Origin: Pocillopora damicornis
Taxonomy: Eukaryota
DNA length: 64,000 nucleotides
Assembly (NCBI RefSeq): GCF_003704095.1
Contig: NW_020844152.1
Coordinates: 186,001 to 250,000, forward strand
Direction: 5' to 3'
Positions 46,901 to 55,900 of this stretch are shown here, in pieces. The position numbers were made by a program. Position 1 is the first letter of the stretch; each line of letters begins with the position of its first letter.

Positions 46901-49900
46901 ATTCCTAGGTGCAATCACCAGTTAACTAACATTTGCTCGATCTCGGGTCCAATTAGAACACGGACACGGGCTCCTCGAGAAAAAAATTAACAACAGAGAC
47001 AATATTTATTGGAATGCTTTGTCAGAACCGACCACTTCCTTATTTATTGAATATAGGAATGAAAGATACTCGGGACGGTGCTAAAAAGCACTGAGACATT
47101 GATGGGACACAATTGGATTATTAGACTGTAAATAAAACTTGGAGCTATGAACAAGTATTAAGAGGATAAACGTCATTAATTAGTTTATGAGTTCTAATCA
47201 AAAGAGCAATATCTTTTATAATCCTCCACTAGTTTTTTCCCGGAACAATTTGGATTTATCCTGATTAAAAAGTCACATTTTATAATTCATCGTGGCTTGA
47301 ATCTTCAGGCTCATCCTCAATGAAGACTTTATAATTTTTCATAATCTCATCCATGGTAAGTTTGCCATCTTTGTCTTCATCAGCCTCTTTTATGAGTGTT
47401 TTAGGTTCTTCAGTGGAGAAGTCATCATCTGGGAACAGCCAGCTTTTCATCTCTTCTTTGTCTAGTTTGCCATTCTTGTCCTTATCAAAGTTGTTGGCGA
47501 AATCCTTTTCCATTTCTTCTTTAGCGTCATCATTTACATCACTGAATGTAGCTGCACAATAAAATTTAACAAATAAATATGAAATACTAATGTTGACATT
47601 GGGGATGGATGGTTAGGACCGGAGCAGGAAAAGCCTGGTGAGAAGTTTTCTCACTCAGTTCCAGGCAGGGTAGTTTATCTCACTTCAATGGTATTTTTTT
47701 TACCTAAAAATTCTTTCTTTGATATTTGACCATCCTTATCTTTGTCGTGTTTTTTGAGGCTATCTTCGATGGTAAATTCCGTCATTCTTGGATTATCCTG
47801 CAAAACAAATAAAACTATTATAATTTTGCCTATTTTGACCTGATTATTTTTTTCATGAAAGGGATTGTGGGCTTTAATCAAATAATATTTCCTCGTACCC
47901 CTGGGTGGTAAAACGCCATGTATTCCTCCAAGTCTAAATTCCCGTCTCCATCTTCATCAGCAAATTTAAATTTTTCTTCATCTTCTTTCATTTGTTCTTT
48001 AGCGTCTTCATCTTTACCATCATCAGAGAAATGACCTTTTTTGAATTCCTCCCATGATACCTTGCCATCTTTGTCTGCCAACAAACGTTAACAAATTTGT
48101 ACGTCAAATACTGGCAGTTAATATCACCACTGGTGCCGTTGCGTCTGAAAATGAACGCAAGCGTCTAAAGTCGGACTTCCGAAAACGGGCACAAGAGTTT
48201 GAAAAACGGCCAAAAACGGGACCATAACGTCCATTGTCTGAAAACGAACGGCGCCGTCCGAAAACGGATGGAAGTGTCGGCAATAGAATAAATCCGTTCC
48301 AAAAACAGATGTAAGTGTTCGAATATTAAGTTTAATTTACGCAAGCCTAATGTTCTTTAAGCAACCAAACTAAATATTGGTTTAGAACTAAACTTCATAT
48401 ATATACTAGTTGTTTGGGTGGTCCGCCACGGAAAAGCTAAACCTAATTCTAAACCTTATAGAACTCTTGGTTGTCGATTAGTACAGGGAAGAATTATAAC
48501 TCACCTGACCAGTGACCAGTGAGAAGAGTGACCAGCTAATATATTGTATGAGCTAAAATATACCAGCATATACTGACCCTCATCGTGTTGTTTCATGGTT
48601 TCCATGACTTCTTTTTTCCTGTATTCCTTTGTAGTTACGTGAAATCTCTGTCTGATCTCATCCTCTGTCAACACTCCGTCCTTATTCAGATCTACTTCAT
48701 CTTTGATTAGTTGCGCCAGTTTGGTTTTTGCGTCTTCGGGGGAAAGCCCTTTGAATTCAGTGTAGTTGTCTCCTGGAGAGGGTTTGAGAGGATTCAACAA
48801 TAAGACAGTGAGAAGTGCTGAGAAAGACCATTTGAGAGGCTAAATAAAAATTTTAATCTCAGTTACAGATGATATTGGCGCAGGAAAACTTAAGTTATTT
48901 TTTTTATTACTACGTTTCCTTTTACCGCCCCCCTACAATACCGTCCCTACCCGTCGGATGTTTTTTTCTCTGACAAAGAAGCAAATAAGTCACCTGTGTC
49001 ATAATCTATTCCCCTCAATACCTGTACCTGAATTTTAAGTTTGTAAAACAGTTTTGTAACATTTAACTTTTGCATTTTTAATCGCACGAGCACAGTAAAA
49101 GAAGGACAATGAAACAAAGTTCAGGGGTTAAATTCAACCTTCTCCCAGCGCGAAATGTTTTGCGACTTATTTAATTTTTCCTTCTTAAATGCTGTACACT
49201 TTACATTCCTTACCATTAATTAACACTTCCTTAAAAACATCGCAAATCCGGTTTTCAGAAAGGCCATCTCCGAAAATTTCGAAAAACCTTGATGCCCTTG
49301 ATTGTAAAACTTGGAAGTTCAAAAAGTAACTAAATGGCTGCATTGACAAATATTTCCTGGGAAAGCTCAAGTTCTAAATTCACAAAGCTCTCCTTTTCCT
49401 TTCTTTTCCAACACCTGTCCCAGTATACTACTTAAAAACTTAGTAGGTATCCAATTAATATTTGCTATGAACTCTCAAAGTTCAATTCATTCCAAAAAGG
49501 CCGGGTTTAATTATATTTATCGAGCCAGATTTTTAATGTATTTTACATAGAGGTGTCTTGGCGAACAGGTGATGACCAGAGTGCAATGCTAACTTACCTA
49601 AAAATGCGTCGTGTTCAAGGTGACTTTGATCATTTTCATCTTCTCCTCCATCATCTCCTTGACTTTCATCTTCTTCATCATCATCGTTGTCATCTTCCAT
49701 TTTATCGTCGTCTTTTTCCTCATCCTCTGTTTCCTCCTCATCAGCAGGATTCTGTTCGTCTGCATGGTCTGCCATTTCTTCATCGTGTTCGTCTTCGTCG
49801 TGTTCATCTTCTGAATGTCCAGGCTTCAAATGATCATCTTCCGTGAAAGCAAAACTCACAGTGATACCTAAAATTAACAGAGCTAACCACCAAGAACGAA

Positions 49901-52900: not shown

Positions 52901-55900
52901 TGTAAGTAAATAATCCAGTTCTTGCCTGCTTCGGCAGATCCCTGTCTCACATAGTAACCCGGTGTGGACCCATCAAGACATACAGCGCCTATTTTGTCAG
53001 CATCTCTCACAGCGTGGTACACAAACCCGTTTGATGGTTGATTGTAATATTGCAAAAGGGAACTTTCCTCTGCAGAGTAAGTTCCCTGTGGTGCCTGTGG
53101 TGCCTGTGGTGCCTGTGGTGACTGTGGTGTTACTGTGTTGATGATTGGACCTGACGAAGGATAATACACAGATGGGTACTGCGTGGAATATTGTGTGTTT
53201 GAATTGGACTGCTGAACATCCGCTATTGGAATTTGACTTTCATTGAAGTTGTCATGGTGTGATTCCATTTCCTTTAAGTGATGGTCCAGTTGATGATGAT
53301 GATGATGAAGTCTGTTATGGTGATGGTGATGATGATGGTGATGACGTTTATGTTCATGATGCTTCTTTACTTTTTGAGCCTCCATTGTCACATTACTAAC
53401 GCTCCCGTTGAAGATTCCGCTGTCCGCGTGGTGACTGAGGGCTCGAGACGCGTCTGCTTCTTCGGTAAATGAATTATTTTGATGTTTGTGATGATGATGA
53501 TGATGATAATGTTTGTGAAGTTGTTTGTGGTAATGTCGATGTTGTTTACTGTGAAGCTGTTTATGTTCTTCACTATTGTTTCCTCTAAAAACATCCTTAT
53601 CGAGTTTCGAGAGGATTTCTTTCATATTGTGTGCGTAAGCCTTTTTCTTGTGCTCACCAGAAGAAGCTCCAGACTCATCCGAATTTGAGCCGCTTTTATC
53701 TGTGTATCCTTCAAACATAGAGCTTATATCTTCTCCTTTGTAGTGATGGCGGCCCAAAATGTCACTCTTACTCATCCCAGTTTCCTCTTTGTTTTCTTCA
53801 GATACCAACTGTCTTGCCTCTTCGTCAGTAATGGCATCGTCCAAGTAACTGTCATCATCCTCCTCTACTTCTGGACCCAGATCCCCATCGTTCTTGAAAT
53901 CTTTGAAGAGCTTGTCATACTCACTTTCACTGTCCCCCTCAGTAACCTTGCTTTTCTTATAAATATCGCTTCTTTTCCTCTGAACCTCACCTCCCTTTAG
54001 AACAGCGGGTGACATAACCTTCACCTTGGGTTCTTCTTTCTCTTCTTTTTGAGAGTCTTCATCGTTGTCATTTTCTTGTTCATCATCAGTGCTGCCGCTA
54101 CCGTCTTGTGCGTTTAATTCTTTCTCAGGAGTTTCGTTTCGTTCAACCTCGCCTTTACTATCCCCTGAGAAATCTGCACTCGTCTCCTCAGGACTGTCCT
54201 CCCCAGAAGATACCTGAGTCATTTTATCAACTGCCCCACGCGCAGAAGAATCTGTGGTGTCAGACTCTTGAATATCCACCATATAACTGTTTGGATAAAT
54301 TCCACTCCCTGACATGTATTCTTCATGAACTTCTCCACTTCCGCTGGGGTCATCCTCCTCGTTTGGGAAAGTACTTCCGCTAGACTCTTCGTTTTCGTCC
54401 AAACTATGAACCTTCTTCCCATGTGATGACCTAGCTATGACACTCTTTGCAAACTTTTGATCCGTTTGCACTGAGCCAGTTTTGTACCACAAATACTCGC
54501 CAGGTTTGCCAGACTTCGAAATATCTTGTTGAACTTTGCCAATTTCTGATTTCTGAATATGTCTTGAAGACACAAAAACAATCAGTGCTAAAGTGTACGC
54601 CAAACGTACATTTAAGGTGTGGTATAGCATGTCTGAAATTGAATCGCAGAGCTCGTCGAGCCTGCCAACAAGTTAAAATCGAATCAGATTTGGCTGAGGG
54701 CAAGTTCTTTGAACTTTTCCTGAGGTAATTTGATGTCACGCAGATCCAGGTACCTGTGTTCTCTCTTTAGCTCTTGCCTTGTTTGTTTTGATAGCAAATC
54801 ATTAAAATAAAGAAATATCGAGAGCTTGGCAGACAAATCTGTTGTTTGTCAAACCAAATCAACCAGGGCAAGATCCACGGTTTGGTTCACAAATCGTCTA
54901 TAATTAATCTTGAGTTAATGGAGCGGGTGGTTTAGCTGTGTAAAACACCACACCACCTGGTGACTTTTGAGTGCTCCGTCAGTAGAGAAGGTAATACTTT
55001 TCACAACAGTACTAAGACATTTAAACAACGATTAAGATGCGCGTGGCATTAAAGTAACCTGTAATCATCGATTAGAGAGTTTTCATTCTGCCTTTCTTGT
55101 GAGAGATCTGTTTATAAATTCTATATCAGTTGTTTTTAAAACAGGTCATGTGTTTTGATATAAAACATATTAGCAATATATTAAATCAGGCGAGTGATTC
55201 CATTCTTATGTGCTGTTGGTTGGATCTGACCGTGAAACGTTCACTTCAGTCTGCACAGAAATATAAAAAGAATGACATAAAATGCTACGCAGTGTACAAA
55301 TCCGACTTTAAAAAAATTAACCGACAAAGAAACTTGAAGAAAATATAGGCTCAGCTCTAGTAAATTAGTAATTAAATACATCCCCATGCAACACTGGGTA
55401 GACAAATTTCGACAGCCTTTGTTCCAAAAAAGCAGTGTAAATGACGCAAATATGTAAAAGATGAAAATTAATAGTTTTTACTTTTAAAAATAGGAAGGTC
55501 AGTGCTAGTGTCTGCAAATCCATTAAAGACAGGCGAGCCATTCATCTAAGACCACTTTCGCATACGAACAGGACGTAAAAAGAGTTTGCCATACAGCGTA
55601 ATGTCCCTGTAGTATTTTTTCACTCCCGTTTTCCAGCTATTTAGAACCTGGCGAGCATATTTCCAATATAAAATTATTTCAGTCGGCCATAAGTCGTTAC
55701 TACCAATTCCTATCCATCCACCATAGCTCAAGGCTCTCTTATTTTTGTGCCGAGATCTCTCCGCTAGTTTCTTTGTACACGTGGTTACTCCCAATCATTA
55801 ATGTCTGACTGGTATTTACTGTAATAGCTCCTTTTTTATCACAATGTGTTGAGCCCCGAGGGTGATGGGCCTCCTTAGTACGATGTCCGGCTGAGGTATC

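What the first reader, a model, noticed from the sequence alone, without database searches (positions are those of the whole stretch)
47280..54630. CARP1 and the acidic/His-rich PAE gene form a tandem pair: candidate biomineralization micro-cluster
Seen: two same-strand genes 2.0 kb apart (PAE stop 51904, CARP1 ATG 49904), sitting between housekeeping genes HDAC1 and ELP3. Both are built as signal peptide, then D/E/H-rich low-complexity tract, then a conserved folded domain. Known: CARP1 is a Ca-binding acidic protein implicated in coral calcification. Inference: the pair may be co-regulated in calcifying tissue, with one binding Ca2+ and the other remodelling acetylated matrix.
Basis: inference. 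Interest (0 to 1): 0.68.

Follow-up and report, generated by a model that had tools for sequence, protein, structure and literature searches.

The report
Adjacent CARP1-like and esterase genes
Two neighbouring genes for secreted proteins are really there: a calcium-binding CARP1-type protein, and a Notum/pectin-acetylesterase-type enzyme with a long acidic and histidine-rich front part. Nothing I could test shows that they work together in skeleton building.

Summary
On the minus strand the order is ELP3, then an intronless 908-aa PAE-family gene (54630..51904), then 1,999 nt, then a five-exon CREC gene (49904..47280), then HDAC1/2. The CREC gene has a signal-peptide-like start, an acidic tract, six EF-hand loops and a C-terminal HDEL. 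By residue counts it has 34.9% D+E and a pI of about 3.9. This matches the published description of CARP1. The PAE protein has a hydrophobic start, a 300-aa acidic Ser-rich tract, a 150-aa tract with 25% His, and a basic esterase domain. That domain keeps Notum's Ser-Asp-His triad but lacks Notum's Trp128.

The "micro-cluster" reading is not supported by any test I could run:
- The two low-complexity tracts are no more alike than shuffles.
- Each gene has its own poly(A) or TATA signal.
- The upstream regions share no excess k-mers.
- The whole PAE protein fails the acid-rich criteria.
- No searchable paper links Notum/PAE to coral calcification.

Synteny, expression and proteome tables could not be checked. 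The most likely reading is two unrelated neighbours that each expanded a low-complexity tract in place. This is an ordinary finding with a modestly unusual esterase.

The parts
51904..54630 (-). Intronless coding sequence of the PAE-family gene (908 aa plus TAA)
   Evidence: The ESM Atlas holds the identical 908-aa protein. From base composition, the chance of no stop in the first 535 codons is about 1e-15, while the other two frames have 17 and 49 stops.
54565..54630 (-). Signal-peptide-like N-terminus of the PAE protein (about residues 1-22)
   Evidence: Hydropathy maximum 2.6 over residues 10-20. Heuristic only.
53641..54540 (-). Acidic, Ser-rich low-complexity tract (residues 31-330)
   Evidence: D+E 25.3%, S 14.7%, pI 4.39. 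The wider span 31-535 is predicted disordered on the charge-hydropathy plot and contains no Cys.
53191..53640 (-). His-rich tract (residues 331-480) with runs H6, H9 and H5
   Evidence: 25.3% His. His runs are at 376-381, 430-438 and 442-446. The tract is built of CAT/CAC triplet repeats.
53026..53190 (-). Uncharged P/Q/S/Y-rich linker (residues 481-535), including a 9-nt unit repeated 5 times (PQA repeat, 53085-53129)
51907..53025 (-). PAE/Notum-type alpha/beta-hydrolase domain (residues 536-908; basic, pI 9.16; 12 Cys)
   Evidence: Pfam PF03283 E 1.5e-99, residues 539-873. 8 of 8 PDB matches are NOTUM, E about 3e-31. Cys count.
52573..52575 (-). Codon of Ser686 (in GTSAGG), aligned with the Notum nucleophile Ser232
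   Evidence: Alignment to chain 4uyu_A. Triad numbering from the review PMC8172013.
52270..52272 (-). Codon of Asp787, aligned with Notum Asp340
52099..52101 (-). Codon of His844, aligned with Notum His389
51300..51305 (-). AATAAA poly(A) signal about 600 nt after the PAE stop (a second one, ATTAAA, at 51156-51161)
49905..51903 (-). Intergenic 1,999 nt (PAE 3' UTR plus CREC promoter). It contains a 29-nt repeat in 2.5 copies at 50882-50952.
49967..49972 (-). TATAAA box 63-68 nt upstream of the CREC ATG
49598..49904 (-). CREC/CARP1-like exon 1: signal peptide, acidic tract and the start of the conserved body (ends ...HDAFL, phase 1)
   Evidence: 15-nt and 12-nt tandem repeats lie inside the acidic tract (49636-49685, 49777-49811).
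48578..48772 (-). CREC exon 2 (EF loop 1 and the first part of loop 2)
   Evidence: EF-hand_7 E 9.4e-5, below the curated cut-off. Loop found by pattern.
47899..48074 (-). CREC exon 3 (rest of EF loop 2, and loop 3)
   Evidence: EF-hand_5 34.7 bits, above the cut-off. Loop.
47704..47797 (-). CREC exon 4 (EF loop 4)
   Evidence: EF-hand_1 24.8 bits, just under the 25.4 cut-off. Loop.
47280..47551 (-). CREC exon 5 (EF loops 5 and 6; C-terminal HDEL at 47283-47294; TAA at 47280-47282)
   Evidence: EF-hand_1 37.4 bits. Atlas nearest named clusters include 'Calumenin family protein' at 0.94.
55961..56077 (-). Last coding exon of the upstream neighbour ELP3
   Evidence: Read by eye from the translation. 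This piece has no Pfam hit. ELP3 identity rests on other exons.
42530..45728 (-). Exons of the downstream neighbour, a class I HDAC (HDAC1/2 type)

Best explanation
These are two unrelated secretory-pathway genes that are neighbours, head to tail, and are transcribed separately.

Gene A is a CREC-family (reticulocalbin/calumenin-type) low-affinity Ca2+-binding protein of CARP1 type. An approximately 75-residue poly-acidic tract sits between the signal peptide and the conserved body, inside the same first exon. This tract probably grew in place by slippage of GAT/GAA/CAC-type codons. With six EF-hand loops and about -76 net charge, the protein buffers or concentrates Ca2+ along the secretory route. 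HDEL would hold much of it in the ER, and some may escape to the calcifying space.

Gene B is a catalytically competent secreted serine carboxylesterase of the PAE/Notum family. Its roughly 500-residue disordered front part (first acidic and Ser-rich, then His-rich) also looks like in-place triplet expansion. I take this front part to be a cation-binding or surface-binding tether for the basic esterase domain. I lean towards a small O-acyl (acetyl) group on an extracellular glycan or glycoprotein as substrate (about 0.5) rather than Wnt palmitoleate (about 0.3).

Shown: the gene structures, domains, triad, compositions, repeats and signals. Inferred: in-place expansion, tethering, the substrate, and the absence of functional coupling.
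For: - Gene models, phases and signals.
- CREC features: EF-hand hits in 4 of 5 exons (2 of them above Pfam cut-offs); five whole EF loops plus one split by intron 2; HDEL; 121 D+E of 347 residues; pI about 3.9. The Atlas gives 'Calumenin family protein' at 0.94 for exon 5.
- Literature passages: CARP1 is a reticulocalbin-like gene plus an acidic N-terminal domain (PMC4878875), and it is calumenin-like with EF-hands (PMC8086859).
- PAE: Pfam E 1.5e-99. Ser686, Asp787 and His844 align with the Notum triad, and Phe718 with Phe268.
- No common origin of the two tracts: Smith-Waterman score 71 against a shuffle mean of 66.8 +/- 7.3, with 135 of 500 shuffles reaching it. tblastn finds only self-hits in the window.
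- Triplet and short-period repeats lie inside both tracts.
- Separate AATAAA (51305-51300) and TATAAA (49972-49967) signals.
- Upstream 1-kb regions: shared 8-mers 33 against 30.1 +/- 7.4 (103 of 300 shuffles reach it), and no shared 10-mers or 12-mers.
- The whole PAE protein is 14.6% D+E with pI 6.17. This is below the >28% D+E / pI <5 criterion, and it fails the pI <4.5 criterion.
- Published tandem skeletal-matrix gene pairs are paralogues (PMC4890752); these two genes are not.
- All other genes recognised in the window are housekeeping types.
Against: - Two adjacent same-strand genes sharing the unusual layout (signal peptide, D/E/H-rich tract, folded domain) is a coincidence I could not put a number on.
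- CARP1 rises after settlement in Stylophora (PMC5951882), and a 'calumenin' gene is up in one calicoblast fate in a single-cell study (PMC12019164). Gene A may therefore well be calcification-linked, and a shared enhancer with gene B cannot be excluded.
- A cnidarian Notum paralogue is expressed aborally in Clytia (PMC4169000), which is the side that calcifies in corals.
- Reference titles in the Notum review link vertebrate Notum to bone and dentin.
- The k-mer test on two promoters has almost no power.
- The lean towards an acetyl substrate rests on Trp128 being replaced, on the Atlas structural neighbour being a plant PAE cluster (TM 0.77 by that row), and on plant motifs recalled from memory. 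None of these is an assay.
Confidence: 0.55

Rival explanations
1. One reading: the pair is a co-regulated biomineralization micro-cluster. Both genes are expressed in calicoblasts. CARP1 concentrates Ca2+, and the acidic/His-rich esterase is carried into the matrix, where it de-esterifies matrix glycans.
For: Same strand, 1,999 nt apart, same three-part layout. The PAE front part is polyanionic and His-rich, like ion-binding matrix proteins. CARP1 is up after settlement and was detected in skeleton by mass spectrometry. 'Calumenin' is up in a calicoblast fate. The catalytic triad is intact, so an enzymatic role is possible.
Against: The two tracts are not homologous (135 of 500 shuffles reach the score). 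The genes have separate poly(A) and TATA signals and no shared upstream words. S-x-E/D motifs typical of phosphorylated matrix proteins are not enriched (observed 10 against 11.1 +/- 2.6; 1458 of 2000 shuffles reach it). The whole PAE protein fails the acid-rich criteria. 'notum' plus 'calicoblast' gives 0 papers. 'notum', 'esterase' and 'calumenin' occur 0 times in the main text of the A. digitifera skeletal proteome paper. 'notum' and 'esterase' occur 0 times in two further skeletome and evolution papers. CARP1 is not among the core matrix proteins named in the passages seen from PMC8382919, where 'CARP1' occurs 0 times.
Confidence: 0.15
2. The neighbours are unrelated, and the PAE gene is a Notum-type extracellular Wnt deacylase. 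It would be a feedback inhibitor of Wnt signalling along the oral-aboral axis, and its basic domain and charged front part would hold it on sulfated cell-surface glycans.
For: 8 of 8 PDB matches are NOTUM. The two best Atlas feature clusters are NOTUM (0.94 and 0.92). The triad and pocket residue Phe268 are conserved. The domain has pI 9.16, fitting the sulfate/glypican binding described for Notum. Cnidarians have Wnt-responsive Notum genes (Clytia NotumA and NotumO).
Against: Scores against Notum are only 104-112 bits, and I counted about 29% identity by eye on the printed fly alignment. The two Notum sequences look clearly more alike to each other than either is to this protein. Trp128, which lines the lipid pocket and forms the oxyanion hole, is Ala here, with Trp shifted by one position (GGAWC). 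The nearest structural cluster in the Atlas is a plant pectin acetylesterase. A preprint on Acropora reports a single NOTUM orthologue, and it may be a different gene from this one. No phylogeny was possible.
Confidence: 0.2
3. The CREC gene is mainly an ER-resident housekeeping Ca2+ buffer or chaperone of secretory cells, held there by HDEL. Its presence in skeleton is spill-over, so there is no biomineralization gene here at all.
For: C-terminal HDEL. The CREC layout of signal peptide plus six EF-hand loops. Housekeeping neighbours. 'CARP1' occurs 0 times in the main text of PMC8382919, whose core-SOMP passage names CARP4, CARP5 and CARP4-gamma.
Against: The extreme acidic insert (exon 1 is 44% D+E) is, according to PMC4878875, found only in corals. 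CARP1 was reported next to fresh CaCO3 and cross-linked to other skeletal proteins (PMC8086859).
Confidence: 0.1

Closest known systems
CARP1 (coral acid-rich protein 1, Stylophora pistillata)
   Same: Signal peptide, acidic N-terminal domain, and a reticulocalbin/calumenin-like body with multiple EF-hands. D+E is above 28% and pI below 5 (34.9% and about 3.9 by residue counts). These match the descriptions in PMC4878875 and PMC8086859 (passages).
   Different: I count six EF loops plus one loop-like 12-mer inside the acidic tract, whereas the paper says seven EF-hand domains. Orthology, species and in vitro carbonate precipitation are untested. No full-length comparison was made, because the exons were not joined.
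CREC family (reticulocalbin, calumenin, ERC-55, Cab45)
   Same: Secretory-pathway signal, six EF-hands, and an HDEL-type C-terminus. The Atlas neighbours of exon 5 include 'Calumenin family protein' at 0.94 and 'Reticulocalbin-3' at 0.88. The family definition is recalled from the general literature.
   Different: An approximately 75-residue poly-acidic insert follows the signal peptide. No CREC chain appeared among the best 60 of 269 PDB matches for exon 5.
NOTUM (palmitoleoyl-protein carboxylesterase)
   Same: Pfam PAE fold, a signal peptide, the Ser-Asp-His triad, the Gly-Gly oxyanion motif, Phe268, most aligned cysteines, and a basic domain.
   Different: About 29% identity (counted by eye). 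Trp128 is replaced by Ala. The protein has a 500-residue acidic/His-rich N-terminal extension. The gene is intronless. The substrate is unknown.
Plant-type pectin acetylesterases (PF03283)
   Same: A very strong match to the family profile (334 bits). The nearest structural cluster in the Atlas is a Streptophyta pectin acetylesterase. GG-x-W-C and YD-x-WQ-type motifs are recalled from memory as plant-like.
   Different: This is an animal gene with an N-terminal disordered extension. No pectin is known in the organism. The motif comparison was not tested with sequences.
Tandem skeletal-matrix gene pairs in Acropora digitifera (laminin G/EGF pair, USOMP-1 pair)
   Same: Adjacent genes for secreted proteins.
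   Different: Those pairs are recent paralogues with similar sequence and expression (PMC4890752, passage). The two genes here belong to different families and share no sequence.
Histidine-rich Ca2+-binding protein of sarcoplasmic reticulum (recalled, not tested)
   Same: An acidic plus His-rich low-complexity composition in a lumenal/secreted protein. This suggests low-affinity, high-capacity cation binding.
   Different: No sequence comparison was made. That protein has no esterase domain.

Membership tests
CREC family | N-terminal signal peptide | tested here: met
   Hydrophobic core in residues 4-20, Kyte-Doolittle maximum 2.6. Heuristic only; no dedicated predictor was available.
CREC family | Six or more EF-hand motifs | tested here: met
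   Five whole 12-residue loops in exons 2-5, plus one split by intron 2. Pfam EF-hand hits in 4 of 5 exons, 2 of them above the curated cut-offs.
CREC family | C-terminal ER-retrieval-type tetrapeptide | tested here: met
   The protein ends in HDEL.
CREC family | Closer to CREC members than to other EF-hand proteins | tested here: inconclusive
   For exon 5 the Atlas gives a generic EF-hand cluster at 0.95, 'Calumenin family protein' at 0.94 and 'Reticulocalbin-3' at 0.88. The best PDB matches are calmodulins. No full-length search was made.
CARP1 | Acidic N-terminal domain fused to a reticulocalbin-like body | tested here: met
   Exon 1 is 44% D+E, with the acidic tract between the signal peptide and the conserved body. 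Definition from PMC4878875.
CARP1 | More than 28% D+E and pI below 5 | tested here: met
   121 of 347 residues (34.9%) and pI about 3.9, computed from residue counts.
CARP1 | Orthology to the Stylophora CARP1 sequence; restricted to stony corals | not testable with these tools
   No eukaryotic sequence collection was open. The organism of the window is not established.
CARP1 | Precipitates carbonate in vitro; located in skeleton | not testable with these tools
   Needs an experiment.
PAE/Notum family (PF03283) | Profile match above the gathering score | tested here: met
   333.9 bits against a 26.6 cut-off, residues 539-873, profile positions 12-351 of 355.
PAE/Notum family (PF03283) | Ser-Asp-His catalytic triad | tested here: met
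   Ser686, Asp787 and His844 align with Ser232, Asp340 and His389 of human Notum.
NOTUM proper | Trp128 of the oxyanion hole and palmitoleate pocket | tested here: not met
   Ala580 aligns with Trp128, and Trp581 follows it (GGAWC).
NOTUM proper | Pocket residue Phe268 | tested here: met
   Phe718 aligns with Phe268.
NOTUM proper | Placement inside the Notum clade; Wnt depalmitoleoylation | not testable with these tools
Activity needs an enzyme assay.
Biomineralization gene cluster | Members related by duplication, as in known matrix-gene pairs | tested here: not met
   The genes belong to different families, and the two tracts are no more alike than shuffles (135 of 500).
Biomineralization gene cluster | Shared regulation or co-expression in calcifying cells | not testable with these tools
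   Only a weak proxy was possible: no excess of shared upstream k-mers and separate poly(A) and TATA signals.
Biomineralization gene cluster | Both products present in skeleton proteomes | tested here: inconclusive
   CARP1 was reported in skeleton. No mention of Notum or an esterase in the main texts searched. The supplementary protein lists are closed.
Coral acid-rich proteins (for the PAE protein) | Whole-protein D+E above 28% with pI below 5, or D+E above 14.5% with pI below 4.5 | tested here: not met
   14.6% D+E and pI 6.17. Criteria.

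The most novel reading that the evidence does not exclude
ELP3-PAE-CREC-HDAC would be a scleractinian-conserved block in which two unrelated secreted proteins each gained an ion-binding low-complexity front part when calcification arose. Both would be driven by one calicoblast enhancer. The PAE protein would be an unrecognised matrix-resident esterase that is tethered to mineral or to CARPs by its acidic/His-rich arm and edits O-acyl groups on matrix glycans. That would make it the first enzyme-plus-nucleator gene pair in coral skeleton formation.
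Probability: 0.1. Interest if true: 0.6.

Novelty: new member of a known kind. Interest (0 to 1): 0.3.

Why it matters
If the pair were co-regulated and specific to calcifiers, it would add an enzyme to a coral skeleton toolkit that is mostly structural and ion-handling proteins. It would also show parallel gain of charged tracts in neighbouring genes.

As it stands, the value is smaller:
- The locus gives a clean genomic model of a CARP1-type gene. The acidic domain lies in the same exon as the signal peptide and carries repeat traces, which favours in-place expansion over exon shuffling as the origin of the reported "fusion".
- The CARP1-type protein ends in HDEL, which matters for how a supposed matrix protein leaves the cell.
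- It flags a Notum/PAE-family esterase with an unusual acidic and poly-His extension that is worth one look in expression atlases.

Tried and rejected
- Common origin of the two low-complexity tracts: rejected. The protein Smith-Waterman score is reached by 135 of 500 shuffles, and blastn gives only matches of 35 nt or less made of triplet repeats.
- Extra PAE or CREC copies in the window: none; tblastn returns self-hits only.
- Recent transfer of the intronless PAE gene from bacteria or archaea: the one scan of genome contigs matched 92 pattern stretches, and none was a relative. This method finds close relatives only. GC3 of 0.42 is like the neighbouring LONRF exons at 0.40. NCBIfam gives 0 families for both halves. 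'esterase' and 'pectin' occur 0 times in the main text of the coral HGT paper.
- Enrichment of S-x-E/D kinase-type motifs in the acidic tract: not enriched.
- Shared promoter words: none beyond shuffles.
- RNA families: 0 matches at gathering thresholds in the whole window.
- Hidden domains in the 535-residue front part: none in Pfam at E <= 0.1 or in NCBIfam.
- Structure prediction of the esterase domain was not accepted by the tool on two occasions. No model and no fold search were made.
- The exons of the CREC gene were searched one by one and never joined, so there is no full-length search, fold or identity figure to published CARP1.
- Not checked because closed or not held: homologue searches, eukaryotic synteny, supplementary tables of skeletal proteomes and single-cell markers, and the immunolocalisation paper PMC4156710 (not held).

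Full report
**What is there**

Reading 47000-55000 on the minus strand and listing stop-to-stop frames shows one long open frame, 54672..51904. Its first ATG is at 54630 and its TAA at 51906..51904, giving 908 residues in a single exon.

Downstream on the same strand, an ATG at 49904 opens a five-exon gene:
- exon 1: 49904-49598
- exon 2: 48772-48578
- exon 3: 48074-47899
- exon 4: 47797-47704
- exon 5: 47551-47280

All four introns have GT..AG borders and compatible phases (1, 1, 0, 1). The coding length is 1,041 nt, or 347 codons, and the protein ends HDEL-TAA. The gap between the two genes is 49905..51903, which is 1,999 nt.

I searched the spliced gene exon by exon and did not join the exons. 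No full-length search, fold or identity figure to published CARP1 exists in this report.

**Surroundings**

- Upstream of the PAE gene are ELP3 exons. Of 3 tested pieces, 1 hit Pfam Radical_SAM_C and 2 hit nothing. For piece 61742-62020, 9 of 9 PDB matches are ELP3. A C-terminal exon ending about 55961 was read by eye and has no Pfam hit.
- Downstream of the CREC gene are class I HDAC exons. 3 of 3 tested pieces hit Hist_deacetyl, and the best PDB matches are HDAC2 and HDAC1.
- Further genes: a LONRF-type gene (34246-37460, minus), an NAD-epimerase gene (about 28772-30588, minus), an EB1 gene (21163-24296, plus) and a laminin-G gene (about 1-10300, plus).
- There are four N runs. I left them alone.
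- Rfam finds nothing in the window.
- I take the window to be cnidarian, but the organism is not established by any search.

**The CREC / CARP1-type gene**

Exon 1 encodes a hydrophobic start (Kyte-Doolittle maximum 2.6). An extremely acidic tract follows (the exon as a whole is 44% D+E, with 7 His in 102 residues). The exon then runs into the beginning of the conserved body.

Exons 2-5 give EF-hand hits in Pfam. Exons 3 and 5 are above the curated cut-offs. Exons 2 and 4 are just below, with E values of 1e-4 to 1e-5. Exon 1 has none. A loop pattern finds five whole EF loops, a sixth that is split by intron 2, and one loop-like 12-mer inside the acidic tract.

By residue counts the protein has 121 D+E of 347 (34.9%), no Cys, a pI of about 3.9 and about -76 net charge at pH 8.

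For exon 5, the nearest named Atlas clusters are a generic EF-hand cluster (0.95), "Calumenin family protein" (0.94) and "Reticulocalbin-3" (0.88). The PDB gives only calmodulin-type matches among the best 60 of 269.

The literature passages I read fit this gene:
- PMC4878875 states that CARP1 derives from a reticulocalbin-like gene that gained an acidic N-terminal domain and is found only in corals. It gives more than 28% D+E and pI below 5 as CARP properties.
- PMC8086859 calls CARP1 calumenin-like with seven EF-hand domains and reports it by mass spectrometry in skeleton.
- PMC5951882 reports higher CARP1 expression after settlement.

The gene fits every testable feature of CARP1. Orthology itself could not be tested.

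Two details are worth noting. First, the acidic tract is in the same exon as the signal peptide and contains 12-nt and 15-nt tandem repeats. This favours growth in place over exon shuffling. Second, the HDEL end predicts ER retrieval, which sits oddly with a purely extracellular role.

**The PAE gene**

Pfam gives PF03283 at E 1.5e-99 over residues 539-873 and nothing else at E <= 0.1. All 8 PDB matches are NOTUM (E about 3e-31, 104-112 bits).

I used the printed alignment to a human NOTUM chain and anchored the numbering on Gly126-Gly127-Trp128. The triad named in the review PMC8172013 (Ser232, Asp340, His389; passages) then aligns with Ser686, Asp787 and His844. Pocket residue Phe268 aligns with Phe718. 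Trp128 aligns with Ala580, followed by Trp581.

Identity to fly Notum is about 29% by my own count on the printed alignment. The fly and human enzymes look clearly more alike to each other.

The ESM Atlas holds the 908-aa protein letter for letter. Its nearest feature clusters are NOTUM (0.94, 0.92) and a plant PAE (0.92). The nearest structural cluster is a plant pectin acetylesterase, with TM 0.77 by that row and 0.38 by the query.

The front half is not a chance frame. The probability of no stop in 535 codons is about 1e-15, and the other two frames have 17 and 49 stops. Its composition by segment:
- residues 31-330: 25.3% D+E, 14.7% Ser, pI 4.39
- residues 331-480: 25.3% His, with H6, H9 and H5 runs
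- residues 481-535: uncharged, P/Q/S/Y-rich, with a 9-nt unit repeated 5 times
- residues 536-908: basic (pI 9.16), holding all 12 cysteines

The whole protein is only 14.6% D+E with pI 6.17, so it is not an acid-rich protein by either published criterion.

**Tests of the "micro-cluster" idea**

- Common origin: the CREC acidic tract against the PAE front part scores 71, against 66.8 +/- 7.3 for shuffles, and 135 of 500 shuffles reach it. DNA matches are short triplet-repeat hits. tblastn finds no further copies in the window.
- Transcription units: an AATAAA lies 600 nt after the PAE stop, and a TATAAA lies 63-68 nt before the CREC ATG.
- Upstream 1-kb regions: 33 shared 8-mers against 30.1 +/- 7.4 (103 of 300 shuffles reach it), and no shared 10-mers or 12-mers. 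This is a weak test.
- S-x-E/D motifs in the acidic tract: 10 observed against 11.1 +/- 2.6.
- Literature searches: "notum" with "calicoblast" gave 0 papers. "notum", "coral" and "biomineralization" gave 3 papers, none on this topic. "pectin acetylesterase", "coral" and "skeletal" gave 1 unrelated paper. "palmitoleoyl-protein carboxylesterase" with "coral" gave 3 papers, one of which lists an Acropora tenuis notum-like gene among stress-responsive genes.
- Main-text term counts: "notum" and "esterase" occur 0 times in four skeletome and evolution papers. "notum" also occurs 0 times in the single-cell paper. The protein lists of these papers are in supplements that I could not open.
- Known tandem matrix-gene pairs in Acropora are paralogues. 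This pair is not.

Some points lean the other way:
- A single-cell study reports "calumenin" up in one calicoblast fate.
- Clytia has an aborally expressed Notum paralogue.
- Reference titles in the Notum review link vertebrate Notum to bone and dentin.

**Origin of the intronless PAE gene**

One scan of bacterial and archaeal genomes found no relative; 92 pattern matches were made and none was confirmed. The method sees close relatives only. NCBIfam gave nothing. GC3 of 0.42 matches neighbouring exons. "esterase" and "pectin" do not occur in the main text of the coral HGT paper. I see no sign of recent transfer. A retrocopy or an old intron-poor gene remains possible.

**Most likely explanation**

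These are two unrelated secretory-pathway genes that are neighbours and are transcribed separately. Each grew a low-complexity tract in its first coding exon by codon-repeat slippage.

The CARP1-type protein is a high-capacity Ca2+ binder of the secretory route. The PAE protein is an active extracellular carboxylesterase outside canonical Notum, and its charged front part probably binds cations or charged surfaces. I lean towards small O-acyl groups on glycans as substrate (about 0.5) over Wnt palmitoleate (about 0.3). This lean rests on one pocket residue, one structural neighbour and recalled plant motifs, not on an assay.

Confidence in the overall reading is 0.55.

**What stayed unchecked**

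- Expression.
- Supplementary proteome and marker tables.
- The immunolocalisation paper PMC4156710 (not held).
- Any structure model (the tool was not accepting jobs).
- Any full-length analysis of the spliced CREC protein.

**Verdict**

The CARP1-type gene belongs to a known kind. The esterase is a new member of a known family with an unusual extension. Interest is 0.3.

Noticed in passing
window 51904-54630: The 2.7-kb PAE gene has no intron, while ELP3, the CREC gene and HDAC around it are split into many exons. No sign of recent bacterial origin was found, and GC3 is like the neighbours.
   Followed up: partly
window 47283-47294: The CARP1-type protein ends in HDEL, an ER-retrieval signal. 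This is hard to square with a role only in the extracellular calcifying space.
   Followed up: no
window 49635-49670: A 12-residue stretch inside the acidic tract fits the EF-loop pattern. Together with the six real loops, it may explain why the literature counts seven EF-hands in CARP1.
   Followed up: no
window 49598-49904: The signal peptide, the acidic tract and the start of the conserved CREC body share one exon, and the tract holds 12-nt and 15-nt tandem repeats. The published 'domain fusion' may therefore be an in-place expansion.
   Followed up: partly
window 50882-50952: A 29-nt G/C-rich unit repeated 2.5 times (97% matches) lies in the intergenic region, about 900 nt upstream of the CREC TATA box.
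   Followed up: no
window 54631-56200: There is no AATAAA or ATTAAA on the minus strand between the ELP3 stop (about 55960) and the PAE ATG. The only TATAAA is at 55111-55116, about 480 nt upstream of the ATG. The PAE 5' end and the ELP3 3' end are therefore undefined.
   Followed up: no
window 18972-19385: A tandem satellite with a 23-nt period (13 registers found).
   Followed up: no
window 11466-13685: A satellite with a period of about 240 nt surrounds two of the N gaps (12648-13230, 13686-13785).
   Followed up: no
window 5577-5737 and 14541-14764: A dispersed repeat, 154 nt at 97% identity. It is probably a mobile-element fragment.
   Followed up: no
window 40217-40597 and 58498-58962: Inverted repeats: 142-nt arms at 85% near the HDAC 3' end, and 66-nt arms at 94% plus a direct pair in an ELP3 intron. 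They look MITE-like.
   Followed up: no
window 1-10300 (+): A multi-exon gene with laminin G domains. Laminin-G proteins are listed among Acropora skeletal matrix proteins (PMC4890752), but nothing links this copy to them.
   Followed up: no
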